Of a stretch of 64,000 bases of DNA, positions 3,641 to 63,792 are shown in pieces (position 1 is the stretch's first letter; the number at the start of each line of letters is the position of its first letter). This DNA is from Alphaproteobacteria bacterium (GTDB lineage Bacteria; Pseudomonadota; Alphaproteobacteria; Micavibrionales; Micavibrionaceae), in assembly GCA_018000295.1 (NCBI GenBank), contig JAGNKE010000004.1, forward strand, positions 60,016 through 124,015. The letters run 5' to 3'. Position numbers and translations under genes: made by a program. The notes beneath the pieces are model-generated. The model saw only the letters and a program-made list of their open reading frames with translations. It made no database searches and had not been told where the DNA came from.

Positions 3641-4765
3641 ATGTACCGCAAAATGACCCTTTTATCCTGTGTTGCCATTACACTCTTCAGCCCGTCTCAG
3701 GCTAAGGCTGAAGGGTACATTCTGCAAAATCTGGTCGCAAACCGGCAGATTTATATGCCCGAAATCGTCGATCCGCAGATGGTCAACGCCTGGGGTCTGG
3801 CGATCCGTCCGGCGGGAGCGGGGGGTCATTTCTGGATCAATAACACCGATACAGGAACGGTCAGCCTTTATGTTGGCGATGTGGGCGGGAAAAAGCTCTT
3901 TCAGGATGATGTCAAGCGGATCACTCTGCCCGCCGCGGACCCGAAGGCCGAGCATTCCACTCCGACGGGGCAGGTCTTTAACGGCGTCGAGACGGAGTTC
4001 GTGGTGACGCATGATGGCATCACCGGCCCCAGCAAGTTCATATTCTGCACCGAAGACGGCACGATCATCGGCTGGACTGAAAAAAAGAATGACGATGGAA
4101 CTTTTATTCGTCCCTCTCATGGCGTGATTGCCGTCGATCAATCTAAGCAGGGAGCGATTTACAAGGGGATAACCGTTTCCGTCAACCGCGAAGGCGGAAA
4201 CCGACTTTATGCGGTGGACTTCGCCAACAACCGCGTCGATATATTCGATTCCTCATTTAAACCTTTGAAGATCGAAGGAGCATTCGCACATCCAGCCGGA
4301 GTTCCCTCCGATCACGCGCCCTTCAACGTGCAGGAGCTGGGCGGTATCCTCTATATAACCTATGCCAGACTGACAAAGGAACCCGGCGAGGAAGAGCAGG
4401 GCACCGGGCTGGGCTATCTTGCGGCCTTTGACTATGAAGGCAAGCTGATCCGCGAGTTCGAGGGCAGAAAAGATCTCGACGCCCCTTGGGGGCTGGCGAT
4501 TGCGACAGCAGACTTCGGTCAGGCGTCCGGCCGTCTGCTGGTCGGGAACTTCGGCAACGGCAAGATCGTGACATTTGATCTGGAAAGCGGCAAGCAGGCA
4601 GGCGTTTTGAAACGGCCAGATGGCAACCCGCTAGAAGTCGAGGGACTTTGGGGCATATTGTTCGGAAATGGTCAAAGCCTTGGCGATGCCAACGCACTCT
4701 ACTACGCCGCCGGCCCTGCCGAAGAAGCGGACGGAGTCTTCGGTAAAATCGTCTGGACTCCCTAA
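3641..4765 (+). CDS. TIGR03118-family secreted beta-propeller-like protein
   Basis: 374 aa counted from the ATG at 3641 (the track starts at the TTG at 3638). The signal peptide ends SQAKA. The motifs NLV....D..MVNAWGLAIRP..GGHFWINN, LYITYA, APWGLAIA..FG...G.LLVGNFGNGKI, GLWGILFGNG and YYAAGP...DGVFGKI match my memory of TIGR03118 proteins. Confidence 0.7.
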   Translation: MYRKMTLLSCVAITLFSPSQAKAEGYILQNLVANRQIYMPEIVDPQMVNAWGLAIRPAGAGGHFWINNTDTGTVSLYVGDVGGKKLFQDDVKRITLPAADPKAEHSTPTGQVFNGVETEFVVTHDGITGPSKFIFCTEDGTIIGWTEKKNDDGTFIRPSHGVIAVDQSKQGAIYKGITVSVNREGGNRLYAVDFANNRVDIFDSSFKPLKIEGAFAHPAGVPSDHAPFNVQELGGILYITYARLTKEPGEEEQGTGLGYLAAFDYEGKLIREFEGRKDLDAPWGLAIATADFGQASGRLLVGNFGNGKIVTFDLESGKQAGVLKRPDGNPLEVEGLWGILFGNGQSLGDANALYYAAGPAEEADGVFGKIVWTP

Positions 4766-40014: not shown

Positions 40015-40053
40015 AATAAAGTTTAACCAGCGCAAAAAAACAGTACCAGTCAG

Positions 40054-40854
40054 CTAAAGAATGGAAACATTATCAATCAGCCGCGTCTTCCCAAGCCAGA
40101 CGGCGGCCAGAATTCGCCCCCAGCGAACCTTGATGTAATCGACGCGTTTGAAACCGCTCCTGAGAAGTTTCTCAGCAGCCTCGGCGCAGGCATCTTCCCC
40201 CTTTTCACCTTCGCGCATGGCATCGGCAGCGGCGGATAACACACGATTGAGGGTACGGGCAACAATGAGTTCTTCGGGCGAAAGGTAAGCGTTTCGGGAG
40301 GAAAGGGCAAGACCGTCCGCATCGCGTATGATCGGTCCTCCCACGATTCGAATGGGGAGCTTGAGAGCCTCCACCATCTCGCGGATCACCTGTAATTGCT
40401 GGAAATCTTTTTCTCCAAACACAGCTACATCAGGCTTAACGGCGTGAAAAAGCCGGCTGACGACATTCACCACCCCGCCGAAAAAATGCGGCCGGAAATC
40501 GCTCTCAAGCCCCTCGGCAGAGGGGCCGGGGTTAATCGCAGACCCGAAACCGTCAGGATAAATTTCGGCGGCGGAGGGAAGAAAGACGACATCCGCGCCT
40601 GCAGATTTGAGCAACGCAAGATCGGTCTCTTCGGTGCGGGGATAAGAGCAGAAATCCTCATGCGGGGCAAACTGCGTTGGGTTGACAAAAATACTGACGA
40701 CCACGCAATCGGTTTCGCGCCGTGCGGTCTGAACAAGAGAAAGATGCCCTTCATGAAGGGCGCCCATTGTGGGAACAAAACCAATTATGCGACCGTCTGA
40801 AGGAGCATTCAGGTCAAGTGCTTCAAGCGCGGATCGTGTGCGAACGACATTCAT
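40054..40854 (-). CDS. panC: Pantoate--beta-alanine ligase
   Basis: 266 aa with the motif [17 protein letters not shown]. Confidence 0.93.
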
Positions 40855-41687
40855 GTCTTAGTTTTAGCATCTGCTTTATAAACATGACTCTCATCGGGAA
40901 AGGCTCGGACCCGCACATCCTCGGCATACGAAGAGACCGCATCAGTAATGATCTTCCCCAGATTGGCGTACGTCTTTACGAATTTGGGCGTATGATCGAC
41001 GGTCAAACCGAGAAGATCTTCGGTAACCAGAATCTGCCCATCGCAAGCCGGAGAAGCGCCAATTCCAATCGTTGGAATGGAGACGGCCAACGTGATTGCG
41101 CGGGCCACGGGCTCGACTGTGCCTTCTATAAGAATGGCAAACGCCCCTGCGGCTTCGACGGCACGGGCATCCTCTATGAGAGCATCCGCCTCATCGGGCG
41201 TTTTCCCCTTAATCTTGTAACCCCCTTCTTTCAAGACAGACTGAGGCTTCAAACCAATATGCGCCATGACGGGGATACCTTTTGATGAGAGATGGGCAAT
41301 AGTCTCTTGCATCTCGCGCCCTCCCTCAAGTTTGACCCCGTCGCAGCCGGTCTCCGTCATAAGCCTGAGAGCGTTCTGGTACGCCAAGGCAGAGGACTGT
41401 TCATACGTGTCATAGGGCATATCAACTAACACACACGCCTTACGGCGTTTACGCATGACGGCCCGCCCGTGTGCGATCAGCATATCCAGCGTGACGGTCA
41501 GTGTGTTGTCCATTCCGTACAACGCCATTCCCATGGAATCGCCGACCAGCAGAATATCGCAATGCGGATCCAGAAGTTGGGCCATAGGGGCGGAATAGGC
41601 TGTAAGACAAACCAGAGGCGCAGCAGAGTTCTTCCGCGCCCGGATGTCGGAGATGCTCAGACGTAAAGGATGAAGATCCGGAGTCAT
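40851..41687 (-). CDS. panB: 3-methyl-2-oxobutanoate hydroxymethyltransferase
   Basis: 278 aa with motifs [14 protein letters not shown] and [13 protein letters not shown]. It overlaps panC by 4 nt. Confidence 0.93.
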
Positions 41688-41701
41688 AGCGCCCTAACGT
41701 T

Positions 41702-43204
41702 ATGAATCAAAAGCATTTTTCCATGAAGTATTGCAACAAAAAGCAACCTGTTTTATACAACTTCGCTATGCTTAACAGAATTCTTTTCCCCATACTAGCT
41801 TTGCTTATGACCCTTTCCTTAAGTTTGCCGCTATTCCAGTCCGGCAATGCAAAGCTCGCCGCGCAGGAGCTTCCGCAAAACCGCGAACAAATCCGGCTTT
41901 CCTTCGCTCCGCTGGTCAAAAAAGTCAAGCCCGCAGTGGTCAACATATACACCAAGCGCGTAGTCGCTCCACAAAACCCGTTCATGGCCGACCCATTTTT
42001 TCGCCAGTTTTTCAGAAACAATATGCTCGATATGCCGATGCGTCAGCATATCGAGGCCTCTTTGGGATCGGGTGTCATTTTACAGCCCGACGGTTTGGTC
42101 GCCACCAACGCCCATGTCATAGACTCGGCAACCGAAATCGTGGTTGTTTTAACGGACGGAAGGGAGTTTCCAGCGCAGATCGCCCTGATTGACAAAGCAT
42201 CTGATCTGGCCTTGCTGCGGATAGACCCCGGTTCAGAAAACCTGCCTTTTGTCACACTCAAGCCCAGCGAGTCGCTGGAGGTTGGCGATCTGGTTTTAGC
42301 CATCGGTAACCCCTTCGGTGTAGGTCAGACAGTGACAAGCGGTATCGTCTCAGCGCAGGGACGATCGTCTCTGGACATTAATGATTTCAATTTCTTCATC
42401 CAGACCGACGCCGCGATTAACCCCGGAAACTCGGGTGGTCCTTTGGTCGCCATGGATGGCGGGGTCGTCGGAATCAATACCGCCATTTTTTCAAGCAGCG
42501 GCGGCTCACTGGGCATCGGTTTTGCCATCCCTTCGGAAATGGTGGCGACCGTGGTGGCGGCCGAAAAAAGCGGGCACAGAAATGAAAAAGGGGTCGTGCG
42601 CCCCTGGCTGGGCGTAAATGCACAAACGGTAACGTCGGAAATTGCCAACGGTCTAGGCTTACCGCGCCCCGGCGGCGCTTTGATCGCGGACATGAACCCG
42701 GCGAGTCCGTTACTCAAGGCCGGGGCGAAGCCGGGAGATATCGTTATAAGCGTTAACGGCCACGCCATTCATAACGCTGCAGAAATGAAATTCCGTATGG
42801 CCACCGTTCCAGTCGGGGAAAAGGCCCAACTCGAAATCCTGCGTGAAGACAAGATCCTGACTTTAACGCTGCAGGCTTTGCCGCCGCCGGACGATCCGCC
42901 AAGGCAGGAAACAACACTCAAGGGCCGCCATATGCTGAATGGCGTGACCATCGCGAACCTGAATCCAGCCGTTGCTGCCGACATTGATTACATCGGCCCG
43001 GAACAGGGTGTGATTGTTCTCCGCGTGCCCCAGAAAATGCGCCAGCGGTTCCTTTCATCAGGAGACATCATTTTGGAAATAAATGACAAGAAAATGAAAA
43101 CTGTAACGGATGTCATAAAAGCAATCGGAACACCTGAGCTTAAAGGATACACTCTGGTATTGCTCAGCCAAGGCCGTACGAAGACAATTTTTTTTGGATA
43201 TTAA
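41702..43204 (+). CDS. Periplasmic serine endoprotease, DegP/DegQ/HtrA family
   Basis: 500 aa with the trypsin-like core (TNAHV, DLALLR, GNSGGPL) and two PDZ-like regions. The true start may be Met23 (41768), which begins the signal peptide. Confidence 0.9.
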   Translation: MNQKHFSMKYCNKKQPVLYNFAMLNRILFPILALLMTLSLSLPLFQSGNAKLAAQELPQNREQIRLSFAPLVKKVKPAVVNIYTKRVVAPQNPFMADPFFRQFFRNNMLDMPMRQHIEASLGSGVILQPDGLVATNAHVIDSATEIVVVLTDGREFPAQIALIDKASDLALLRIDPGSENLPFVTLKPSESLEVGDLVLAIGNPFGVGQTVTSGIVSAQGRSSLDINDFNFFIQTDAAINPGNSGGPLVAMDGGVVGINTAIFSSSGGSLGIGFAIPSEMVATVVAAEKSGHRNEKGVVRPWLGVNAQTVTSEIANGLGLPRPGGALIADMNPASPLLKAGAKPGDIVISVNGHAIHNAAEMKFRMATVPVGEKAQLEILREDKILTLTLQALPPPDDPPRQETTLKGRHMLNGVTIANLNPAVAADIDYIGPEQGVIVLRVPQKMRQRFLSSGDIILEINDKKMKTVTDVIKAIGTPELKGYTLVLLSQGRTKTIFFGY

Positions 43205-43351
43205 GAGAGATAACTGAATGAAGACTAATTTTTAAACATGAATAAAGGCAGGATCCTTTCATGGACAATCTTGTGGCCGGGGAACTACATTCTTCAGTTT
43301 CAAAATAGCATCGCAAAAAACAGTCCGTAAACAGTCAATTCAGCTGCAGCC

Positions 43352-43669
43352 TCAAATATTTTCATAAGACAAATCTTGTTCGGAGCGTCCAAAAAGCCTA
43401 AAGCCCAAAAATCCACCAATCTCAGAAAAAGATAAATTGCTGGGCTTATAAGAGGACATACTAAGTAAAAGCATATCCCGCTCAAATTCCTCTTTTTCCA
43501 CTTCATGATTTCTGCCCCGGTCAGCCGAACGCTGCATACGGGCGTTTGTTCTAAAGCTCAGCCACGCTGAATCTCGCCTCAAAGAGCCGTTGTTCGAAGG
43601 GTCATAATCCTGGAAAGACCTCCGTAGATGATCATCGTCAGTAGAAGGATCGTAAGCAAAAAGAGTCAT
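43352..43669 (-). CDS. Orphan small protein A (105 aa), paralogue of 43948..44247
   Basis: It shares an N-terminal block (DDDHLRRSFQDYDPSNNGSL vs SDDIRSFQDINPTAGNLG) and a C-terminal block (PSNLSFSEIGGFLGFRLFG vs PSSEIGVVRGIGLGGLG) with protein B. Its coding GC is normal, unlike the AT-rich flanks. Confidence 0.5.
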   Translation of the reverse strand: MTLFAYDPSTDDDHLRRSFQDYDPSNNGSLRRDSAWLSFRTNARMQRSADRGRNHEVEKEEFERDMLLLSMSSYKPSNLSFSEIGGFLGFRLFGRSEQDLSYENI

Positions 43670-43861
43670 AATATCACCATAAGCAAATTATAAAAAAATA
43701 CATAATAAAATGCAAATAAAAAAACAGTAGACAAATCCGAAAGTAAAACAATAAAGCATCAATAACGATTATAATAAAACAAAAAAATAAATTGAATAAT
43801 ATTACATCTCCTTGATGTAGACATAGTTCTGATTTTTGTAAAAATAGCTTCGAAAATGAAA
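43670..43861. other. Very AT-rich upstream tract of small-protein gene A
   Basis: About 190 nt dominated by A/T runs (e.g. AAATTATAAAAAAATACATAATAAAATGCAAATAAAAAAAC), in strong contrast to the window-wide composition. Confidence 0.8.
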
Positions 43862-43896
43862 AAGGCGCCGAACCCGCTCGGACGCCCCTTTCCCCC
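43862..43896 (-). terminator. Rho-independent terminator of small-protein gene B
   Basis: Minus-strand hairpin GGCG-T-CCGA GCGGGT TCGG CGCC (8 bp with a 1-nt bulge), followed by TTTTTCATTTTC. It lies 52 nt after the gene B stop. Confidence 0.6.
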
Positions 43897-43947
43897 AACT
43901 TCAAAGGCTTTTTCGCCTTACTTCTCTTGTCTAAAATTCTTACTCGT

Positions 43948-44247
43948 TCAGCCGTAATCCAATTCCTTATGCAAGCTCTGCACAACGGCGGCAAAATTAA
44001 TTGAGCCAAGCCCCCCTAAGCCGATCCCCCTGACGACACCGATCTCTGAACTCGGTCTAAAGCCGTCCAGCATAACTTTAGATGCAGAGGACCAGTCCCC
44101 GCCACCCCTTCTGGTCGCGGCCGCCCTTATGTCTTGACCTCTTGTCCTGTTAATCTCTCGGGCGGCACCACGCGTAAAAGAACCCTTATCGCCAAGATTC
44201 CCAGCGGTGGGATTGATATCCTGAAATGAGCGAATGTCATCTGACAT
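43948..44247 (-). CDS. Orphan small protein B (99 aa), paralogue of 43352..43669
   Basis: The ATG at 44247 is preceded by AAGGAG with a 7-nt spacer (the track ORF starts 17 codons earlier). The gene has its own terminator and shares sequence blocks with protein A. Confidence 0.6.
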   Translation of the reverse strand: MSDDIRSFQDINPTAGNLGDKGSFTRGAAREINRTRGQDIRAAATRRGGGDWSSASKVMLDGFRPSSEIGVVRGIGLGGLGSINFAAVVQSLHKELDYG

Positions 44248-44440
44248 CTTTTTTCTCCTTACAAGGTCAATATAATAAACAAAGCATAGAACTGTCAAGA
44301 AAAAACAATGTATTTTTTATTATTAATAATACTTAAACTATACAATAAAAGTAATTATTACACAAAAAAAATAAATAAACAGCATAATAAAAAGGCACTT
44401 TATTATAATAATATACTACATAGTGCCGATTTTGGGGCAG
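44248..44440. other. Very AT-rich upstream tract of small-protein gene B
   Basis: About 190 nt of A/T-dominated sequence (e.g. TTATTATTAATAATACTTAAACTATACAATAAAAGTAATTATTACACAAAAAAAATAAATAAAC). Confidence 0.8.
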
Positions 44441-44620
44441 ATGGTTCCGATTTTGAAAAAATAATCACAGGAGGTAAGAACCCCGAGTCATTTCGATGCA
44501 TAATCGGGGTCAAGCTCTTGTTTTATGGGGAGTTTCAGGCCATGATGAGCGGCGCGTGTGTTCGGCCCTGAACCGGGGATGCGCCTTTGGGCAAAGTAAT
44601 AAAAAACGGATTATTTGGTG

Positions 44621-46237
44621 ATGAAAGACATTGTTTCCCTCTGTAAACGTCGCGGTTTTATCTTCGCAGCCTCCGAAATCTATGGAGGAATCAACGGATT
44701 CTGGGACTACGGCCCGCTGGGCGTAGAATTAAAGAACAACCTGCGCGACCGCTGGTGGAAGGATATGGTGGTCACGCCGCCGATTGGCCCGGACGGCAGC
44801 CCCGTGGAGATCGTCGGCGTCGATTCGGCCATCATCCAGAACCCGAAAGCCTGGGTCGCCTCCGGCCATGTCGGCGGCTTTTCCGACCCGATGCAGACCT
44901 GCCGCAAGTGTAAAAAGCTTTTCCGAGCCGACCATGTATGGGATATGCTCAAGGATTGCGAATGGGTTTTGTCGTTTGCGGACGCATTTGGCGAAAGCGG
45001 CGATAGCGAATCTCTGAAATTTGATAGCGGCAAGGCTTTGCGGTGGGCGGAAACGAAGGGCAAAAAACTGGCTCCGGGCCTCGCTTTAGTTCGCAATCCG
45101 CAAGTGACGATGTCTTGGCTGGCGCAGGATTTACAGGAGAAGGCCGGAGCAACAGAGTTTTCCGGTCCGGCGTCTATTGTCGAGATTTTGCAATACATGG
45201 CCACGGAACAGAAGGCAGCCACAGGGTTGCAGACTCCTTGCCCGAATTGCGGCGGCGATTTGACGGAACCGCGTGATTTCAACCTTATGTTCGAATCGCA
45301 CGCGGGCGCAATCAAGGATGACTCAAGCAAAGTCTATCTCCGCCCCGAAACGGCGCAGGGGATTTTCCTCAATTACAAAAACGTTCTCGACTCCTCGCGC
45401 GTCCGCGTCCCCTTCGGCATCGCGCAGATCGGCAAGGCCTTCCGCAACGAGGTCAACCCGCGCAACTTCATCTTCCGTTCGCGGGAATTTGAACAGATGG
45501 AACTCGAATGGTTCTGCCACCCGGATGAAGCCAAAATGTGGCGCGACTTCTGGTTCGCCGAGCGTCAACGCTTCTGGAAATCTGTGGGCCTCTCCAGCGC
45601 GAATCTTCAGATGCGCGACCACGATTCGGACGAACTTTCACACTACGCCAAGGCGGGCCTCGGCACAGCGGACATCGAATACCGCTTCCCCTTCACCGCG
45701 CCGGGTTACGGCGAGTTGGAGGGAATCGCCCACCGCTGCGCCTTCGACCTGACGCAGCATCAGGAACATTCGGGCGCGAAGCTGGAATATATGGACCCGA
45801 CCGATTCGAAAATCCGCTATATGCCGCACGTCATCGAGCCCGCGGCGGGCCTCTCCCGTGGCGTTTTGGCCCTGATCTGCGAGGCCTACACCGTAGACGA
45901 GAAACGCCCCTCGGGCCTTTACCTGAATTTCCACCCCTCCATGGCGCCGAAAAAAGCCGCGATCCTGCCCCTGACCGCGAAAGAGGAGCACGTTCCCCTC
46001 GCACAAAAGCTTTATCTGGATATCCGAGAGGATTTCGCCGTCGATCTCGACATCAAGCAGAATATAGGCAAACGCTACGCAAGGCAGGATGAAATCGGCA
46101 CGCCTTTCTGCTTTACGGTCGACAACGAAAGCACGGCAGACCATTCCGTGACGGTGCGCGACCGCAACACCATGGCGCAGGAACGCATCCATATGGATAA
46201 GGTAAAATCGTTCTTGCACGAAAAGATGAAGGCCTGA
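44621..46237 (+). CDS. glyQS: Glycine--tRNA ligase, homodimeric (alpha2) type
   Basis: 538 aa from MKDIVSLCKRRGF. The motifs are SEIYGGINGFWDYGPLGVELKNN, FNLMF, RPETAQGIF, FRNE..PRNFIFR.REFEQME and GKRYARQDEIGTP. Confidence 0.92.
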   Translation: MKDIVSLCKRRGFIFAASEIYGGINGFWDYGPLGVELKNNLRDRWWKDMVVTPPIGPDGSPVEIVGVDSAIIQNPKAWVASGHVGGFSDPMQTCRKCKKLFRADHVWDMLKDCEWVLSFADAFGESGDSESLKFDSGKALRWAETKGKKLAPGLALVRNPQVTMSWLAQDLQEKAGATEFSGPASIVEILQYMATEQKAATGLQTPCPNCGGDLTEPRDFNLMFESHAGAIKDDSSKVYLRPETAQGIFLNYKNVLDSSRVRVPFGIAQIGKAFRNEVNPRNFIFRSREFEQMELEWFCHPDEAKMWRDFWFAERQRFWKSVGLSSANLQMRDHDSDELSHYAKAGLGTADIEYRFPFTAPGYGELEGIAHRCAFDLTQHQEHSGAKLEYMDPTDSKIRYMPHVIEPAAGLSRGVLALICEAYTVDEKRPSGLYLNFHPSMAPKKAAILPLTAKEEHVPLAQKLYLDIREDFAVDLDIKQNIGKRYARQDEIGTPFCFTVDNESTADHSVTVRDRNTMAQERIHMDKVKSFLHEKMKA

Positions 46238-46251
46238 TCGATCTAAAAACT

Positions 46252-47139
46252 TTAAAGCCCATACTGCGAACGGGCCAAGCGGTCTTCAACCGCATCGATC
46301 AGATCGTCGGGCAGAGAGGAGGCGGAGGAAACACCGCCTCCGCGCAGATCAAACAGCGCCGACCACCATTTGCGCGGCGCTGAAAATTCAAGAAACTTGA
46401 CGTCCTTTCCAAACCGCGCCCTGCAAAACGCCCGCATTTCGGCAAAACCGTCGATGAACCCGTTCTCAAGCGCACCGCCGCCCGTCCAGAACGCGCCCTC
46501 GAACAAATCCTTGTCTTCGCCCTTGAGCTTTTCGCCCCGCCGCTCGCGCACCCAGTCTTTGAAAACCGCGTGCATATCCTTTTGAATTTCAGAGAGGCGC
46601 TTCACATCCGCCGCCTTTTCGGGCTCAAACGGATCGAGAAACGATTTATCCTTCCCCGCCGTGTGGATTCGCCGCTCGACTCCGGCCTTTTCGATCAGAT
46701 CCTTCATGCCGAAGGAGGCGGAAATCACGCCCACCGACCCGACGATGGACATTTTCTGCGCGTAAATCTCATCCGCCGCGCAGGCCAGCCAGTATCCGCC
46801 GCTCGCCGCCAGATCCTCGACAAAAGCGAGGACAGGAATTTTCTTCTCCTCCGCCAGAGCGCGAATCTGTCCGGCGATCAACGCGCTCTGCGCCCCCGAC
46901 CCGCCGGGGCTGTTAATCACAAGCGCAATGGCCTTGAGCGGCTGCGCCTCGAAGGCCTTCTCGATCAGCGGAGCAAACCGCTCATGGCTGATCCCGCTGC
47001 GTCCGCCGAGGCTGGTATCGCGGATCACCCCAGCCAGCCGCAGCACGGCAATTTTCGGCTTCGGCGCAAACCATTGCCCGACCATCGGCGCCTTGGCCAG
47101 CACCGTCCGGGTTTTATGAAGGGCTTTTCGAGCGCACAT
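46252..47139 (-). CDS. S49-family signal peptide peptidase (SppA/SohB-like)
   Basis: 295 aa with motifs INSPGGSG and LAASGGYWLACAADEIYA. Confidence 0.85.
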   Translation of the reverse strand: MCARKALHKTRTVLAKAPMVGQWFAPKPKIAVLRLAGVIRDTSLGGRSGISHERFAPLIEKAFEAQPLKAIALVINSPGGSGAQSALIAGQIRALAEEKKIPVLAFVEDLAASGGYWLACAADEIYAQKMSIVGSVGVISASFGMKDLIEKAGVERRIHTAGKDKSFLDPFEPEKAADVKRLSEIQKDMHAVFKDWVRERRGEKLKGEDKDLFEGAFWTGGGALENGFIDGFAEMRAFCRARFGKDVKFLEFSAPRKWWSALFDLRGGGVSSASSLPDDLIDAVEDRLARSQYGL

Positions 47140-47346
47140 ATTATAACTTTCCTACCGATATGAATTTCGCCGATCTTAACCTAAACAACTAGGGGTACCG
47201 TAGAATTTTTTCAGCCAACTACCATGCCCCTTGCAAATGAAGTAAGAGCCTAGCAATGACAGCAAACTAAATCCATGGTAAGCACCTCTAGAGAAAATCG
47301 TAAAAACACAAATATAATTTAATCTTCGAGCAAAACATTAAAAAGC

Positions 47347-47883
47347 ATGTTTAACATTTTTAGATTTAAAAAAAATCGCCCAAAATTGGATGAAGTTAAT
47401 TCTAATCAAGTGCTTGATGAAATATTATATTTGAGCAATAGAGAGGACTACCTAGGCAAAGCAGCACTAGCAAAACATGCATCTAAGGCAGCCATTAAAC
47501 TTGGAGAATATGATAAAGCATGGAGTTTATTGCATGAGCAAAAAATGCTGTATTTATCGCATGCACAAAACCAAAAATGGAATGCAAAATATATTTTTGC
47601 ATTAGAAGGTACTGTATCTGAGGAACTTGCAAATATTTTACGTCTTGAAGGTAAGCATGACCAAGCTTTAGTTCATATTCTTTACTGGATAATTACGTCT
47701 CAAAATACTACGAAGAGACAGGAGAAAAAGCTAATAGCTTATCTGGGACGCTGTAAGTTTAAGAGTGTTACTATTGAAGATATTAAGAGTTTTATTGAAG
47801 GAAATAAGCCACATCCTGACTTAGCAACGATCCAATTCAAAGTGCGCGATTGGAGAGATAGTCAAGATAAGGCTTTAAGGTGA
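47347..47883 (+). CDS. Hypothetical protein (178 aa) in a low-GC patch
   Basis: A long ORF in a clearly AT-richer segment (47.16-47.90 kb). It has no signal peptide and looks helical/TPR-like. I recognise no family. Confidence 0.45.
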   Translation: MFNIFRFKKNRPKLDEVNSNQVLDEILYLSNREDYLGKAALAKHASKAAIKLGEYDKAWSLLHEQKMLYLSHAQNQKWNAKYIFALEGTVSEELANILRLEGKHDQALVHILYWIITSQNTTKRQEKKLIAYLGRCKFKSVTIEDIKSFIEGNKPHPDLATIQFKVRDWRDSQDKALR

Positions 47884-60775: not shown

Positions 60776-62158
60776 CTAGACCTTCATTCCTCCGGCGCCG
60801 GACGTGCCCGTGCTGTAGGAAGCGATGCGGTCCTTCTCGACCGCGGTCGCGGCAAGGGTAGAATCGGCGCTGGCCACAGCGGCCGCCGGGATTTCTCCGT
60901 TCGTGGCGCGGGCGAAGGTGGCGGAAATCGGCTTGATCCCGCTGGCCGTATCGTCCATCCCTAACTCGGCGGCAAACGATCCCGTCGCACGCGGCGTGGA
61001 AGGGACATTGGCCCCGGTCAGGACGCCCGATGGGATCAAATCGATCAGCTTCATGTCAGGGACAGGGATTTGCAGACCCGGCGGCAACAACGCATTCACA
61101 GGGGCCAATAACTCCCGCGTTGTTTCAGGAAGCTGCGCGGTGCGGGGCGGCGGCGCAGCAGAAGGCAATTCAGTATCGAAACCAAGAGCGGCAACATTCC
61201 CAAAAGCATCGTCAGGACTAGAAGAAGTAACCGCAACGGCCTTATCACTCGACAAAAGACCAGTCTGAGTCAAGGCAGTCGCCTGCTCGTTCCGCGAAAG
61301 CCCATCCTGATTATTCAAAACAACAGCATTAACATCCCGGAAACCCATATCTGAGGATGCACGGCTCTTGATTTCAGCAACTGCTGCCGGATCGCCCGCG
61401 CTGGCACCCTTAATCTGATTTCGCAGTTCGGGATTACTCTTCAGTAACGCATCACGATCTCTTTGAGCGCGGATTAACTGATCGATATACTGATCTCTCT
61501 GCCGCTGCACATCGCGCATCCTCAGCCTGTTTTCCTGCTCATCGCGCTGCCATTTTTCCTGATCGAAGCTTCCATCGGCCTTGAAATAGGCATTGGGATC
61601 AAGTCCGGCCTCTTGAATCGCCTGACGTAACTGCTCTCTTTTCGCATAGGCGTTAAGCGTGTTGTCGTTAATATCGGCATCGTTGCCAAGATCGAAAGCC
61701 TTGTCGAACGCATTGATTTTCTTGTCGAGTTCACCGATCTTTTTTTCGAGTTCCGCAATCCGCGCATCCAACTCCGCCAGCCGCCGCGCCGCCTCATACT
61801 GCTCAAGCATGAGATGCAGCAGATCGTCGGCCTCGCGTTCGCGCTTCTTAGCCTCGTCGAGATCGTCTGAGCGAACCGGACCAACTACAGCATAGCCGGC
61901 CTTGTTGACCGAGCCGGAACCACCATCCATGCTCTGGTCTATACCGTAATCCAACAGAAATCTGCCGAGCTTCGACGGAGGAGACCCGAAATCATGACCC
62001 GGATCGTCGCCATCCAGCCCGTCCATGCGGTACTGTGTATCGTTCGCGCTTTCGGCGTCTGCTGTCTGTTCGGCGGCAGGATTTGTGGCGTCGTGTTCTT
62101 CGTCAAGAACGAGCTTGTTGGCTACGCTAGCACCCACGTCAGTCACTTTAAAACCCAC
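60776..62158 (-). CDS. Hypothetical coiled-coil protein (460 aa)
   Basis: It has an acidic N-terminus, a central heptad-rich region of about 170 aa (ARRLAELDARIAELEKKIGELDKKINAFDKAF ... RDQYIDQLIRAQRDRDALL), and a Pro/Ala/Ser-rich C-terminal half. The start is uncertain: it is a GTG in the track with no clear RBS. Confidence 0.5.
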   Translation of the reverse strand: MGFKVTDVGASVANKLVLDEEHDATNPAAEQTADAESANDTQYRMDGLDGDDPGHDFGSPPSKLGRFLLDYGIDQSMDGGSGSVNKAGYAVVGPVRSDDLDEAKKREREADDLLHLMLEQYEAARRLAELDARIAELEKKIGELDKKINAFDKAFDLGNDADINDNTLNAYAKREQLRQAIQEAGLDPNAYFKADGSFDQEKWQRDEQENRLRMRDVQRQRDQYIDQLIRAQRDRDALLKSNPELRNQIKGASAGDPAAVAEIKSRASSDMGFRDVNAVVLNNQDGLSRNEQATALTQTGLLSSDKAVAVTSSSPDDAFGNVAALGFDTELPSAAPPPRTAQLPETTRELLAPVNALLPPGLQIPVPDMKLIDLIPSGVLTGANVPSTPRATGSFAAELGMDDTASGIKPISATFARATNGEIPAAAVASADSTLAATAVEKDRIASYSTGTSGAGGMKV

Positions 62159-62556
62159 ACACGTTAGTAAAGACTATACTAACGGAGAGGGTATCTCCTA
62201 AAAGTTAATATTATGTAAATACTATAACCTTTTATTCCAATTACATTTTGAGATCCGAAGACTGTCGCCTGTATAAAATCCGTGGCCGAGACGGTAGGCT
62301 AAGGTATCCCCCCTGTAACACTATGTTCCGTATGGTTTTTTCAAACTCTTATGCACGGAATAGAAAAAAACTACGCCTTTTTTTTGTGATTTGCAAACAA
62401 ATTTAGATTTTTTTTTCAAAACCGGAACTAATATTCAATCCCTTGAATATAAAGGAGTTTTTCGCGAGAAAAAGAGGGGGAGTAACCCTATGATATTTCA
62501 TAATTAATTACCATAATGATCAATTAATAGACGATCATACAAAAATAATTCGTATA
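62159..62556. other. AT-rich 400-bp intergenic tract upstream of the coiled-coil gene
   Basis: It contains long A/T homopolymer runs (AAAAAAACTACGCCTTTTTTTTGTGATTTGCAAACAAATTTAGATTTTTTTTTC) and ends with ...CATAATTAATTACCATAATGATCAATTAATAG. Confidence 0.8.
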
Positions 62557-63792
62557 TTAACTTTGCCTAATATTAAGCTCTTCCGGGGAAGGGTTTAAAG
62601 TCGCTCGGACCAGATGATAAAGGGCAAGGACATAGATCATAACGCCGATCCAGTGGCTCTGCCATAACCCATAGGAAATCGCGGCAACAAGCAGGACCAG
62701 CAGGAACAGGGTCAGGCCGCAGCGGGCGCTTTCCGAGCCTTCCCGGCGCAAGGCCTCGAGAATCGTGCCCAGAAGGGCGCAACCCCACACCGCGCCGGCA
62801 AACCCGAAATCCACCCAGAGCTGCAGCGCGAAATTATGCGGGTGCAGCACACTGTCCTCACGGTGATAAAGCCGCGCATGATCGAACGACTCAACATACC
62901 GGGTCGCATCCATCCCGTGCCCGGCCAAAGGGTTTTGCAGCGCATAGCGGCTGGTAAAATCCCAGATCTCCATCCGTGCCCCCGCATAACCGCTCTTCAG
63001 CCACGGCAGAGTTTGGGCATCGGCGGCCAGCGTGGCGAACATCCATTGCGCCAGCCACGGAGCGGTCAGAAGCAAAAGGCATAGGAACGCCGCCAGTACC
63101 CTATGCCCTGGCCGCCATCCCGCCGGATACAGGAAATAAACCCCGAATCCGAAAACAAAGGCCAGTTGCGCCACCTGCGCCTGTGAGAGAGCCAGCATCA
63201 GAACAATCGCGCCGAACAGGGTCGAACCGAGAAAAAGACGCATCTGCGGCGGCGCATCCCAGACCCGGATCAGGCTAAGCGCGGCAAACGCGCATAACAC
63301 GATATTGACCGCCCCGCGGTTCAGGACGGCGGTGCTGATGGTCCGCGCTGGATCAGTGTCGTGAAAAACCTGATAGAGCGGCATCCTGAACGAAAGCTCC
63401 GCCGCTCCTATAAGAGCGGCCAGCGTCAGCAGGGCGGGAAAGACCCATGCGTTGTTTTTGAGGCTTTGCGGATCAAGGGTCCGGCAGACGGCTATCAGAA
63501 AAACGCCGCTGAAAATGAGCGCTCCCGTCGTAACCGCCTTCCAGATAACCTCCTCAGGATGGCCGGAAGAAAAGGCGCTCAAACCGCACAGCAAACTGAT
63601 GCCCAAAGCGATCAGAAGATAGAATCGGCTGAGGGGCAGGGGCTGTTGACGCACAACAACTAGAAAGATATACGCCCCCAGCCCCAGTGCCGAAGGCAAA
63701 AACGTCATAAACCGTGGCAGCACAACCGAGATCAGCGGCAGACAAGAAAAAGCCAGAAGAAAATAAAAGGTGAAATCGCGCCGGACAGTCAT
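62557..63792 (-). CDS. O-antigen ligase / Wzy_C-family polytopic membrane protein
   Basis: 411 aa with about 10-12 TM segments. A periplasmic loop carries RYALQNPLAGHG....Y.........HPHNFALQLWVDFGFAG, typical of O-antigen ligase-like proteins. Confidence 0.65.
   Translation of the reverse strand: MTVRRDFTFYFLLAFSCLPLISVVLPRFMTFLPSALGLGAYIFLVVVRQQPLPLSRFYLLIALGISLLCGLSAFSSGHPEEVIWKAVTTGALIFSGVFLIAVCRTLDPQSLKNNAWVFPALLTLAALIGAAELSFRMPLYQVFHDTDPARTISTAVLNRGAVNIVLCAFAALSLIRVWDAPPQMRLFLGSTLFGAIVLMLALSQAQVAQLAFVFGFGVYFLYPAGWRPGHRVLAAFLCLLLLTAPWLAQWMFATLAADAQTLPWLKSGYAGARMEIWDFTSRYALQNPLAGHGMDATRYVESFDHARLYHREDSVLHPHNFALQLWVDFGFAGAVWGCALLGTILEALRREGSESARCGLTLFLLVLLVAAISYGLWQSHWIGVMIYVLALYHLVRATLNPSPEELNIRQS

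What the first reader, a model, noticed from the sequence alone, without database searches (positions are those of the whole stretch)
43205..44620. Two paralogous orphan small-protein genes, each an independent unit behind an extremely AT-rich upstream tract
There are two minus-strand genes, A (43352-43669, 105 aa) and B (43948-44247, 99 aa). Their products share two conserved blocks. The N-terminal block is DD.(L/I)R(R)SFQD(Y/I)(D/N)P(S/T)..(N)G.L. The C-terminal block is (K/R)PS..SEIG...G(F/I)(R/G)L(F/G)G. The middles are Arg-rich and polar. Neither has a signal peptide or a recognisable domain. Gene B has a textbook RBS (AAGGAG-N7-ATG) and its own terminator (43862-43896). Each gene is preceded by about 190-370 nt that is among the most AT-rich sequence in the window, while the coding parts have normal GC. 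That contrast argues the ORFs are real and that the upstream tracts are specialised promoter or silencer regions, targets for nucleoid-associated or xenogeneic-silencing proteins. This is a duplicated, independently terminated, probably tightly regulated small-protein family of unknown function between degP and glyQS. It is the best candidate here for an undescribed module, with possible roles as effectors, stress peptides or toxin-like proteins. I also considered a RiPP-precursor reading, because both have a Gly-Gly about 20 residues before the C-terminus. No maturation or export genes are nearby.
Basis: partly seen in the sequence, partly recalled or inferred. Interest (0 to 1): 0.7.

Follow-up and report, generated by a model that had tools for sequence, protein, structure and literature searches.

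The report
Orphan disordered small-protein gene pair
Two neighbouring genes in a Micavibrio-like bacterium encode related ~100-residue proteins with no predicted stable fold and no known relatives, each driven by a strong promoter behind a very AT-rich control region whose length stays fixed across distant relatives; what the proteins do is unknown.

Summary
A (43352-43669) and B (43948-44247) are real minus-strand genes under purifying selection (dN/dS about 0.1-0.2). They are true paralogues: profile-profile probability is 97%, and intermediate forms occur in relatives. Exhaustive searches found only about 16 family members, all in a Micavibrio-related alphaproteobacterial clade. There is no hit in Pfam, NCBIfam, PDB, PHROGs or PADLOC. 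AlphaFold gives no confident fold.

B sits in a fixed position, transcribed divergently from glyS. A arose by a roughly 600-bp tandem duplication that also copied the control region, and its product later became acidic.

The AT-rich tract is not anonymous foreign DNA awaiting silencing. It contains two sites 21 bp apart, then a sequence-variable spacer of 115-117 bp, then a conserved T-rich block abutting a near-consensus TTGACA-N18-TATATT promoter, then a strong ribosome-binding site. This geometry is kept to within 1 bp in 21 of 22 loci, including distant genomes where the protein in that position is no longer recognisably related.

RiPP, toxin-antitoxin and non-coding readings are rejected; the EF-hand hit is unsupported.

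My best inference is abundant disordered partner-binding proteins, expressed from a promoter controlled by a factor bound 11 helical turns upstream. Function is unproven.

The parts
43948..44247 (-). Gene B: 99-aa Gly-rich (16%), mildly basic (pI 9.5) protein predicted to be disordered. It is the ancestral member occupying the fixed position divergent from glyS.
   Evidence: ORF. Orthologues at the same position in L001, L003, L008, L009, L010, L082 and L087. dN/dS is 0.13-0.20. AlphaFold mean pLDDT 54.5. Physical properties.
44255..44260 (-). Shine-Dalgarno AAGGAG, 7 nt before the ATG of B. It lies inside a conserved short leader (A)TCATAAGGA(G/A).
   Evidence: Sequence. Conserved across about 25 loci.
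44269..44298 (-). B promoter: TTGACA-N18-TATATT (sigma-70 type, 11 of 12 matches).
   Evidence: Scan. TTGAC is invariant among the 7 close relatives and at least 80% conserved across the 21 loci that share the conserved promoter block; the -10 element is conserved as TATATT, TAGGAT or TAGATT.
44299..44318 (-). Conserved T-rich block abutting the -35 element (AAAAATACATTGTTTTTTC; wider consensus TTTTTACATGnTTTTTTTC). It is either UP-element-like or a protein-binding site.
   Evidence: Unique in the window (0 expected by chance). Mean pairwise identity is 68% over 19 divergent loci, against 37% in the adjacent spacer.
44319..44419 (.). AT-rich spacer (GC 0.15). Its sequence is variable but its length is fixed. 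Measured from the end of the proximal site to the TTTTTCTTGAC block it is 115-117 bp, about 11 helical turns.
   Evidence: Site-to--35 distances are 156-158 and 135-137 bp in 21 of 22 loci. Spacer identity is 0.37 against 0.33 for shuffled sequence, while the glyS side of the same intergenic region varies by 129-288 bp. A/T-tract phasing at 10.5-11 bp gives z=2.8, p=0.009.
44420..44456 (-). Two direct repeats 21 bp apart (in the B reading direction, CAAAATCGGAACCAT and CAAAATCGGCACTAT). This is a putative binding site for an unidentified factor.
   Evidence: repeat family D2. Conserved in the clade and in distant Micavibrio-like loci.
43859..43919 (-). B 3' element: a small hairpin (AAGGCGAAAAAGCCTT) followed by an intrinsic terminator (AAAGGGGCGTCCGA...TCGGCGCCTTTTT).
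   Evidence: Conserved after B in all relatives. In L010 a second copy follows the A-type gene.
43823..43837 (-). A single copy of the same site (AAAAATCAGAACTAT) upstream of A, 121 bp from A's -35 element. It is a remnant of the duplicated control region.
   Evidence: repeat families D1, D2 and D8, offset 583-617 bp between the A and B upstream regions. Degenerate copies also lie upstream of the A-type genes in L001 and L010.
43687..43716 (-). A promoter: TTTGCA-N18-TATAAT. The L001 orthologue has TTGACT-N18-TATAAT.
43352..43669 (-). Gene A: 105-aa acidic (pI 5.1) paralogue with one predicted long helix (residues 35-72) and disordered ends.
   Evidence: ORF. Orthologues P0004, P0008 and P0013, and A-type genes in L010 and L008. 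dN/dS about 0.11. AlphaFold mean pLDDT 59.1. Physical properties.

Best explanation
A and B are two real, separately transcribed paralogous genes. They belong to an undescribed family of proteins of about 85-107 residues restricted to a Micavibrio-related alphaproteobacterial clade. The proteins are hydrophilic, have no signal peptide, transmembrane segment or Cys pattern, and are largely disordered.

Shown:
- B is the ancestral gene in a fixed chromosomal position, transcribed divergently from glyS.
- A arose by a tandem duplication of about 600 bp that copied both the gene and its control region. A then drifted to an acidic protein.
- The very AT-rich tract upstream of B is a conserved promoter module. 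It consists of two sites 21 bp apart, a spacer of 115-117 bp whose sequence varies but whose length is fixed, a conserved T-rich block, a near-consensus sigma-70 promoter, and a short leader with a strong ribosome-binding site.

Inferred:
- A DNA-binding factor occupies the tandem sites and communicates with RNA polymerase, or with a second site at the T-rich block. It does so across an intrinsically bent or looped spacer of 11 helical turns. This would switch an otherwise very strong promoter.
- The proteins are abundant when expressed. They act by binding a partner through short conserved motifs: N-terminal RSFQDINPxAGN, central F-x-P-S-S-E-(I/V)-G, and an acidic-aromatic C-terminus (ELDYG). 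These motifs flank a basic (B-type) or acidic (A-type) helix. They do not act as enzymes or as folded domains.
For: Genes are real:
- dN/dS is 0.11 (A) and 0.19 (B) against L001, and 0.13-0.20 for B in three closer pairs.
- Reading frames, start codons, ribosome-binding sites and the terminator are conserved.

Paralogy:
- hhalign of B-type against A-type profiles gives 97.2% probability, E=4e-11.
- The L010 A-type gene matches both A and B.
- The upstream regions are also paralogous (repeat families D1, D2 and D8).

Orphan family:
- 11 proteins matched among 5.8 billion clusters.
- 10 true hits among 1.84 billion representatives read exhaustively by HMMER.
- Nothing in Pfam, NCBIfam, PDB, PHROGs or PADLOC.

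Disorder:
- AlphaFold mean pLDDT is 54.5 and 59.1 with 11-sequence alignments.
- GRAVY ranges from -0.2 to -1.1 and B-type proteins are 13-18% Gly. No 19-residue window is hydrophobic enough for a membrane span.

Control module:
- Conserved blocks are seen in alignment A6.
- The promoter block and leader are conserved in about 25 loci, including loci whose protein at that position is unrecognisable.
- Site-to-promoter distance is 156-158 and 135-137 bp in 21 of 22 loci.
- Spacer identity is near random (0.37 against 0.33), while the glyS-side distance varies from 129 to 288 bp.
- A/T-tract phasing at 10.5-11 bp gives z=2.8.
- A copy of the site is retained upstream of A, where no glyS is adjacent.
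Against: - There is no expression, protein or binding data of any kind. Promoter strength, the bound factor and looping are all inferred from sequence.
- The tandem sites lie between two divergent genes and could serve glyS instead of B, or both. A third copy of the site elsewhere in the window has the orientation it would have relative to glyS.
- The phasing signal is modest and was tested only against mononucleotide shuffles.
- Low pLDDT from a shallow alignment does not prove disorder.
- Around A the geometry is looser (121-146 bp).
- The partner-binding role has no direct support. It is only the usual mode of action of small disordered proteins that carry conserved short motifs.
- Homology of the small ORFs found in the same position in distant genomes is shown only for L041 and L044 (64-74% probability). 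For the others it rests on position and promoter conservation alone.
Confidence: 0.5

Rival explanations
1. The AT-rich tracts are targets of nucleoid-associated or xenogeneic-silencing proteins (H-NS, MucR or Lsr2-like), and the genes are tightly silenced, possibly acquired, cargo such as effectors or toxins.
For: The tracts are the most AT-rich DNA in the window, with minimum GC of 0.16-0.19. Phased A/T tracts are also what such proteins prefer. MucR-type proteins exist in Alphaproteobacteria (background knowledge, not tested here).
Against: - The position is syntenic and vertically inherited across many genomes.
- Coding GC is ordinary.
- The promoter is near-consensus and conserved.
- Spacer length is fixed to within 1 bp while its sequence drifts. 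Length-indifferent coating of AT-rich DNA does not predict that.
- There are specific conserved sites rather than mere AT richness.
Confidence: 0.15
2. The tandem sites and part of the tract belong to glyS, as an upstream regulatory site or second promoter for the synthetase. The small gene merely shares the intergenic region.
For: The sites lie 165-186 nt upstream of the glyS ATG and are conserved wherever glyS has this neighbour. The third copy, at 62410-62431, has the orientation it would have relative to glyS with respect to its own downstream gene.
Against: The distance to the glyS ATG varies from 129 to 288 bp (sd 33), whereas the distance to the small-gene promoter is fixed to within 1 bp. 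A copy of the site moved with the duplicated small gene A, away from glyS. A separate conserved glyS promoter, TTGTTT-N17-CATGAT, lies closer to glyS.
Confidence: 0.2
3. The proteins are exported effectors or regulators that lack a Sec signal. They would be exported through a type I system, or through the flagellar type III apparatus in the way FlgM is, and would act outside the cell or on prey.
For: - Size, predicted disorder, a Ser/Gly/Asn-rich N-terminus and fast sequence divergence resemble FlgM-like and other non-Sec substrates.
- The host lineage is related to predatory Micavibrio.
- In M. aeruginosavorus most highly expressed attack-phase genes are hypothetical (PMC3189940).
Against: - No FlgM Pfam match at E up to 1.
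- The promoter is sigma-70 type, not sigma-28 type.
- No secretion or flagellar genes are adjacent.
- dN/dS of 0.13-0.20 shows purifying rather than diversifying selection.
- M. aeruginosavorus has an acetyltransferase in that position instead.
Confidence: 0.12
4. They are bulk protective hydrophilin-type stress proteins, hydrophilic and Gly-rich like YciG, YjbJ or CsbD. Composition rather than specific binding would matter.
For: B-type proteins are 13-18% Gly with negative GRAVY and no predicted fold. Proteins in the same position in other genomes keep their composition while their sequence drifts.
Against: Specific motifs are strongly conserved within the clade, with RSFQDINPxAGN and ELDYG nearly invariant. 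A-type proteins are only 3-10% Gly. There is no KGG or CsbD match in Pfam.
Confidence: 0.1
5. RiPP precursors cleaved at the Gly-Gly, or a toxin-antitoxin pair with a basic B and an acidic A.
For: Small size, a Gly-Gly in B, and opposite net charge of A and B.
Against: - No Cys (0 in most members). The Gly-Gly is not conserved in A-type proteins.
- No maturation, transporter or immunity genes lie within about 6 kb in any locus.
- A and B are homologues of each other with separate promoters and a terminator between them.
- B occurs without A in L003, L009, L082 and L087.
- No PADLOC hit.
Confidence: 0.03
6. The ORFs are not translated and the functional products are small RNAs.
For: The promoter, leader and terminator are better conserved than the protein sequence across distant genomes.
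Against: dN/dS is well below 1 with dS saturated. An open frame of 70-140 codons with a conserved Shine-Dalgarno sequence and ATG is kept in every genome. Conserved peptide motifs are present. No Rfam match at E up to 1.
Confidence: 0.03

Closest known systems
FlgM (anti-sigma-28 factor, Pfam PF04316)
   Same: About 90-100 residues, intrinsically disordered when free, a Ser/Thr/Gly-rich N-terminus, very low sequence conservation between lineages, and action by binding a partner through a C-terminal helical segment.
   Different: No sequence or profile match. The promoter is sigma-70 type and the gene is not in a flagellar cluster. The conserved motifs (RSFQDINPxAGN, ELDYG) are unrelated to the FlgM C-terminal domain.
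Bacterial hydrophilins and small stress proteins (YciG/KGG repeat, YjbJ/CsbD)
   Same: Small, Gly-rich, very hydrophilic, no stable fold, encoded as single-gene units.
   Different: No homology. This family has lineage-specific conserved linear motifs, and the A paralogue is not Gly-rich.
Promoters controlled from phased upstream sites over bent or looped AT-rich DNA (E. coli rrnB P1 with Fis sites and UP element; gal operators about 113 bp apart with HU). From background knowledge.
   Same: A strong sigma-70 core promoter, an A/T-rich block abutting the -35 element, upstream protein sites an integral number of helical turns away, and an AT-rich intervening segment.
   Different: The site sequence (CAAAAYCGRAACTAT, two copies 21 bp apart) matches no regulator motif I could recall. 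The bound factor is unknown and whether it activates or represses is unknown. The 1-bp length conservation is seen across genomes whose GlyRS is only about 60% identical.
NepR (alphaproteobacterial anti-sigma factor of the general stress response)
   Same: A small, partly disordered alphaproteobacterial regulator with one binding helix.
   Different: No sequence similarity was recognised by eye, and I did not identify or name a NepR model in the Pfam output, where no family reached significance. The gene is not next to ecfG or phyR, and the promoter lacks a GGAAC-N16-17-CGTT EcfG motif in working register (sequence inspection).

Membership tests
FlgM (PF04316) | Match to the FlgM C-terminal sigma-28-binding domain profile | tested here: not met
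   hmmscan against Pfam at E up to 1 on 11 family members and on 25 ORFs from the same position in other genomes: no FlgM hit.
FlgM (PF04316) | Location in a flagellar regulon, or a sigma-28 or class II flagellar promoter | tested here: not met
   Neighbours are degP, panBC and glyS. The promoter is TTGACA-N18-TATATT.
RiPP precursor peptide | Adjacent maturation enzyme, protease or transporter genes | tested here: not met
   Within about 6 kb the only gene families are GlyRS, S49 peptidase, acyltransferase, HtrA/DegP, PanB and PanC, plus L17 and RpoA in L001 and a methyltransferase and an SLT-like protein in L003/L004.
RiPP precursor peptide | Conserved leader cleavage motif (Gly-Gly) and a modifiable core (Cys/Ser/Thr pattern) | tested here: not met
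   The Gly-Gly is absent from A-type members and most members have no Cys.
Type II toxin-antitoxin pair | Two unrelated, co-transcribed, always co-occurring genes | tested here: not met
   A and B are homologues. They have separate promoters with a terminator between them. B occurs alone in 4 lineages.
EF-hand (PF13499), weak hit in A | Score above the gathering threshold and a conserved 12-residue Ca-binding loop | tested here: not met
   19 bits against a cutoff of 30, in 1 of 11 members only. The loop is not conserved in the orthologue P0004 (DYDVLNSRSSRR).
Xenogeneically silenced (H-NS/MucR/Lsr2-target) island | Horizontally acquired, AT-rich coding DNA with patchy distribution | tested here: not met
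   Coding GC is 0.53 and 0.43 against 0.54 for the window. The position is syntenic across dozens of genomes.
Xenogeneically silenced (H-NS/MucR/Lsr2-target) island | Binding of the silencer to the tract | not testable with these tools
   Needs ChIP-seq or EMSA.
Hydrophilins (Gly >6%, high hydrophilicity) | Composition criteria | tested here: inconclusive
   B-type proteins meet the Gly criterion (13-18%) and have GRAVY -0.2 to -0.7. A-type proteins have 3-10% Gly. The criteria are compositional and do not establish homology or function.
Known cis-regulatory or small RNA families (Rfam 15) | Covariance-model match in 42800-44900 | tested here: not met
   Only chance-level hits to eukaryotic snoRNA models and a ctRNA at E 0.1-0.8, far below gathering scores. 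No hit at gathering thresholds anywhere in the window.

The most novel reading that the evidence does not exclude
The position next to glyS holds a clade-wide, very highly expressed, fast-evolving disordered protein. Its promoter is governed by a rigid nucleoprotein architecture not described before: two sites 21 bp apart, held exactly 11 helical turns from a T-rich block and a consensus promoter by a bent AT-rich spacer. The protein itself may feed back on this module, or act on RNA polymerase or the nucleoid, as a lifestyle switch specific to Micavibrio-like bacteria, which are thought to be predatory or epibiotic.
Probability: 0.12. Interest if true: 0.7.

Novelty: new variant of a known kind. 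Interest (0 to 1): 0.45.

Why it matters
The protein family is undescribed, with no curated family, structure or named relative. It is confined to an uncultured Micavibrio-related lineage, so it is one of many lineage-specific small proteins of unknown function.

What sets it apart is the control region. It combines a near-consensus promoter with upstream tandem sites whose distance is conserved to the base pair, even though the intervening AT-rich DNA and the encoded protein both diverge almost to randomness. This gives a clean, testable case of a spacing-constrained bacterial promoter. It also makes the small protein a reasonable candidate for an abundant, switchable factor in a poorly understood group of presumed bacterial predators.

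If the proteins turn out to be ordinary stress proteins, the finding is of local interest only.

Tried and rejected
- **Hypervariability.** GlyRS is 99% identical between the window and L001, while A is 62% and B about 50%. That looked like diversifying selection. It is a recombination mosaic instead: degP, panB and panC in the same block are equally divergent (64-67% nt, dN 0.23-0.28) and dN/dS of A and B is low.
- **Structure.** Two AlphaFold runs gave pLDDT 54-59, too low for a meaningful fold search.
- **P0017.** This 747-aa protein with 8 matching stretches is a low-complexity tandem repeat and not a relative.
- **Wider homology.** Iterating an HMM over all ORFs of 86 loci did not recruit the small ORFs found in the same position in distant genomes (best L044, E=0.016). 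Profile-profile comparison supports only L041 and L044.
- **Sigma factor motifs.** By eye, sigma-54, sigma-28, ECF (GGAAC) and alphaproteobacterial LexA (GTTC-N7-GTTC) patterns do not fit the tandem sites in register. This was inspection of the sequences, not a formal scan.
- **GANTC site.** A GANTC site in the hairpin next to the glyS promoter is conserved, but GANTC is not rare in this window (2.8 per kb), so no weight was put on it.
- **Expression data.** The M. aeruginosavorus ARL-13 table was checked. That genome has an acetyltransferase in this position, so it gives no information on this family.
- **Genome-contig scan.** A scan with family peptide patterns found nothing. The second scan used GlyRS instead and supplied the comparative loci.
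- **Metagenome scan.** It added only one locus, from the same species as L082.
Full report
**1. The observation**

Both ORFs exist as described on the minus strand: A at 43352-43669 (105 aa) and B at 43948-44247 (99 aa).

B has these expression signals:
- AAGGAG, then 7 nt, then ATG.
- A TTGACA-N18-TATATT promoter match at 44298-44269.
- A canonical intrinsic terminator at about 43859-43891, conserved in relatives.

A has a TTTGCA-N18-TATAAT match at 43716-43687. I found no convincing terminator for A.

The two upstream tracts are the most AT-rich DNA in the whole 64-kb window. Their minimum GC is 0.16 and 0.19 in 150-nt windows, against 0.54 overall. The coding regions have GC of 0.53 (B) and 0.43 (A).

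The flanking genes are an HtrA/DegP protease (Trypsin_2 plus PDZ domains) and a single-chain GlyRS (tRNA-synt_2b plus HGTP_anticodon). The synthetase is not glyQS.

**2. Are A and B related, and are they genes?**

Pairwise BLASTP is only borderline (E=0.019). Relatives settle the question.
- Locus L010 carries a B-type gene and an A-type gene in tandem. Its A-type gene matches both A (1e-10) and B (2.6e-5). L008 has the same arrangement.
- An 11-sequence alignment is collinear. It shows an N-terminal RSFQDINPxAGN block, a charged middle, an F-x-P-S-S-E-(I/V)-G block, and an acidic-aromatic C-terminus.
- Profile-profile comparison of B-type against A-type members gives 97.2% probability, E=4e-11.

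Evidence for protein coding:
- Against the syntenic genome L001 (GCA_963852345.1), dN/dS is about 0.11 for A and 0.19 for B.
- For B in three closer pairs dN/dS is 0.13-0.20, similar to GlyRS in the same pairs.

Both are therefore protein-coding genes under purifying selection.

I first read the contrast between 99% GlyRS identity and 50-62% identity for A and B as hypervariability. It is not. A block running from the middle of B through panC is uniformly divergent (64-68% nt, dS saturated), while its flanks are 92-95% identical. This is a recombination mosaic.

**3. Distribution and identity**

The window comes from an alphaproteobacterium related to Micavibrio. The closest GlyRS sequences among species-representative genomes are 74-77% identical and come from MAGs labelled Rhodospirillales, Alphaproteobacteria or Micavibrio. 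Several of these are from activated sludge.

The family is extremely narrow:
- 11 proteins among 5.8 billion clusters.
- 10 true hits among 1.84 billion representatives read exhaustively by HMMER. The eleventh hit, P0017, is a spurious low-complexity repeat.
- One additional metagenome locus.

No member matches Pfam, NCBIfam, PDB sequences, PHROGs or PADLOC. The weak EF-hand hit in A scores 19 bits against a cutoff of 30. It occurs in one member only and its loop is not conserved.

AlphaFold with the family alignment gives mean pLDDT of 54.5 for B and 59.1 for A. The only feature in A is one long helix at residues 35-72.

Physical properties:
- The proteins are hydrophilic, with no membrane-spanning stretch and essentially no Cys.
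- B-type members are Gly-rich (13-18%) and neutral to basic.
- A-type members are acidic (pI 4.6-5.5).

**4. Evolutionary history**

B is always found immediately upstream of glyS and divergent from it, in the conserved order panC, panB, degP, small gene, glyS.

A-type genes are present in the window lineage, L001, L008 and L010. They are absent from L003, L009, L082 and L087.

The A upstream region is paralogous to the B upstream region. Direct-repeat families are offset by 583-617 bp, and one of them includes a copy of the upstream site. The duplication therefore copied the gene together with its control region.

**5. What the AT-rich tract is**

Seven clade members were aligned across the region between B and glyS. 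About 25 more distant loci were then stacked without gaps. The comparison shows a modular control region. Read in the direction of B, it contains:
- Two sites 21 bp apart, CAAAAYCGRAACTAT (window 44420-44456).
- A spacer of 115-117 bp with GC of 0.15-0.27.
- A conserved T-rich block, TTTTTACATGnTTTTTTTC, abutting TTGAC.
- A -10 element (TATATT, TAGGAT or TAGATT).
- A short leader, (A)TCATAAGGA(G/A), carrying the ribosome-binding site.

The key result is geometric:
- In 21 of 22 loci the two sites start 156-158 and 135-137 bp before TTGAC.
- Spacer sequence identity is almost random, 0.37 against 0.33 for shuffled sequence.
- The other side of the same intergenic region, from the sites to the glyS ATG, varies from 129 to 288 bp.
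- A/T tracts in the spacer show modest helical phasing at 10.5-11 bp (z=2.8, p=0.009 against mononucleotide shuffles).

A fixed-length, sequence-free spacer of about 11 helical turns is the signature of a face-of-the-helix constraint between a bound factor and the promoter. It is not what generic coating of AT-rich DNA would produce.

A single copy of the site also sits 121 bp upstream of A's -35 element. The L001 and L010 A-type genes keep degenerate copies at 125-146 bp. These copies argue that the sites serve the small genes rather than glyS. glyS has its own conserved TTGTTT-N17-CATGAT promoter at 44518-44546.

**6. The same position in distant genomes**

Many more distant Micavibrio-like loci keep the same promoter module and an ORF of 70-140 codons at the same place. 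These ORFs typically begin MS..., have a Ser/Gly/Asn-rich N-terminus and a basic middle, and often end in an acidic-aromatic C-terminus.

Sequence homology to A and B is detectable only for L041 and L044 (64-74% probability, E about 3-6e-5). HMM iteration did not recruit the rest. I treat the others as probable orthologues by position, not as proven family members.

The position is not universal. L068, L071 and M. aeruginosavorus ARL-13 have an acetyltransferase there. The published ARL-13 expression data therefore say nothing about this family (PMC3189940).

**7. Mechanism: shown and inferred**

Shown:
- A and B are real paralogous genes forming an orphan family.
- There is no predicted globular fold.
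- Each gene is an autonomous transcription unit by sequence signals.
- The control module is conserved and its spacing is rigid.

Inferred, at about 0.5 overall:
- An unidentified DNA-binding factor at the tandem sites acts on a very strong sigma-70 promoter across a bent or looped AT-rich spacer.
- The proteins are abundant when expressed and work by binding a partner through their conserved short motifs and central helix.

I cannot say whether the upstream factor activates or represses. I cannot name the partner. The acidic-aromatic C-terminus and the neighbouring PDZ protease are only a weak lead, and no operon link exists because the genes are convergent.

**8. Rival explanations**

- Silencing of foreign DNA is disfavoured by synteny, normal coding GC and the length constraint.
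- The sites could belong to glyS, or to both genes. This remains possible at about 0.2.
- Export without a Sec signal, in the manner of FlgM or a type I substrate, is not excluded. There is no profile match, no flagellar context, no sigma-28 promoter and no sign of diversifying selection.
- A bulk hydrophilin role conflicts with the sharply conserved motifs.
- RiPP, toxin-antitoxin and non-coding RNA readings fail specific tests (see the membership table).

**9. Novelty and verdict**

The protein family is new in the sense that nothing curated resembles it. However, nothing shown here demands a new kind of mechanism. Small disordered binding proteins, and promoters controlled from phased upstream sites, are both known kinds.

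I rate it as a new variant of a known kind, with interest 0.45. The most distinctive and testable element is the base-pair-precise promoter geometry, which persists across genomes where both the spacer and the encoded protein have drifted almost to randomness.

Noticed in passing
window 44481-44623 (+): glyS has its own conserved sigma-70-like promoter, TTGTTT (44518-44523), N17, CATGAT (44541-44546), and a conserved 5'UTR of about 75 nt. A GC-rich hairpin (44481-44509) lies just upstream of the promoter; a hairpin is present at this place in relatives but its sequence differs. The conserved glyS start is ATG 44621 (MKDIV), not the TTG at 44615 given by the ORF list. No Rfam family matches this region.
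   Followed up: partly
window 62410-62431 (+): A third copy of the upstream site with its T-run (TTTTTTTCAAAACCGGAACTAAT) lies in another AT-rich intergenic region (62299-62643, minimum GC 0.27). It is about 260 nt upstream of a 460-aa ORF (60776-62158, minus strand) with no Pfam match, whose sequence looked low-complexity and coiled-coil-like by eye (no prediction was run). This may be a second member of the same regulon.
   Followed up: partly
window 47217-47883: A 600-nt AT-rich stretch (minimum GC 0.24) contains a 178-aa ORF (47347-47883, plus strand) with no Pfam match. Its coding GC is about 0.33, so unlike A and B this one does look compositionally foreign.
   Followed up: no
window about 40050-44150 versus L001 5493-9535: There is a recombination mosaic between two otherwise roughly 92-95% identical genomes. 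The block from mid-B through A, degP, panB and panC is only 64-68% identical with saturated dS. GlyRS, S49 peptidase and rpoA/L17 on either side have dS of 0.2-0.3.
   Followed up: yes
L001 2176-3375; L003 2353-3543 (window 46237-46252): Relatives carry an Acyl_transf_3 gene between glyS and the next gene on that side (the S49 peptidase in L001, a methyltransferase in L003). The window lacks this gene, and here glyS and the S49 gene are 14 nt apart.
   Followed up: no
Loci L026, L030, L034-L037, L041, L042, L044, L046-L049, L058, L061, L064, L065, L086 (about 4300-4700, minus strand): Distant Micavibrio-like genomes keep the same promoter module and a small Ser/Gly/Asn-rich ORF in the position divergent from glyS, although the protein sequence is mostly unrecognisable. 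L068, L071 and M. aeruginosavorus ARL-13 have a GNAT acetyltransferase there instead.
   Followed up: partly
window 41702-41768: The ORF list starts degP at ATG 41702 (500 aa), but orthologues start at MLNR..., which corresponds to 41768 (478 aa). That leaves a divergent panB-degP intergenic region of about 80 nt rather than 14 nt.
   Followed up: no
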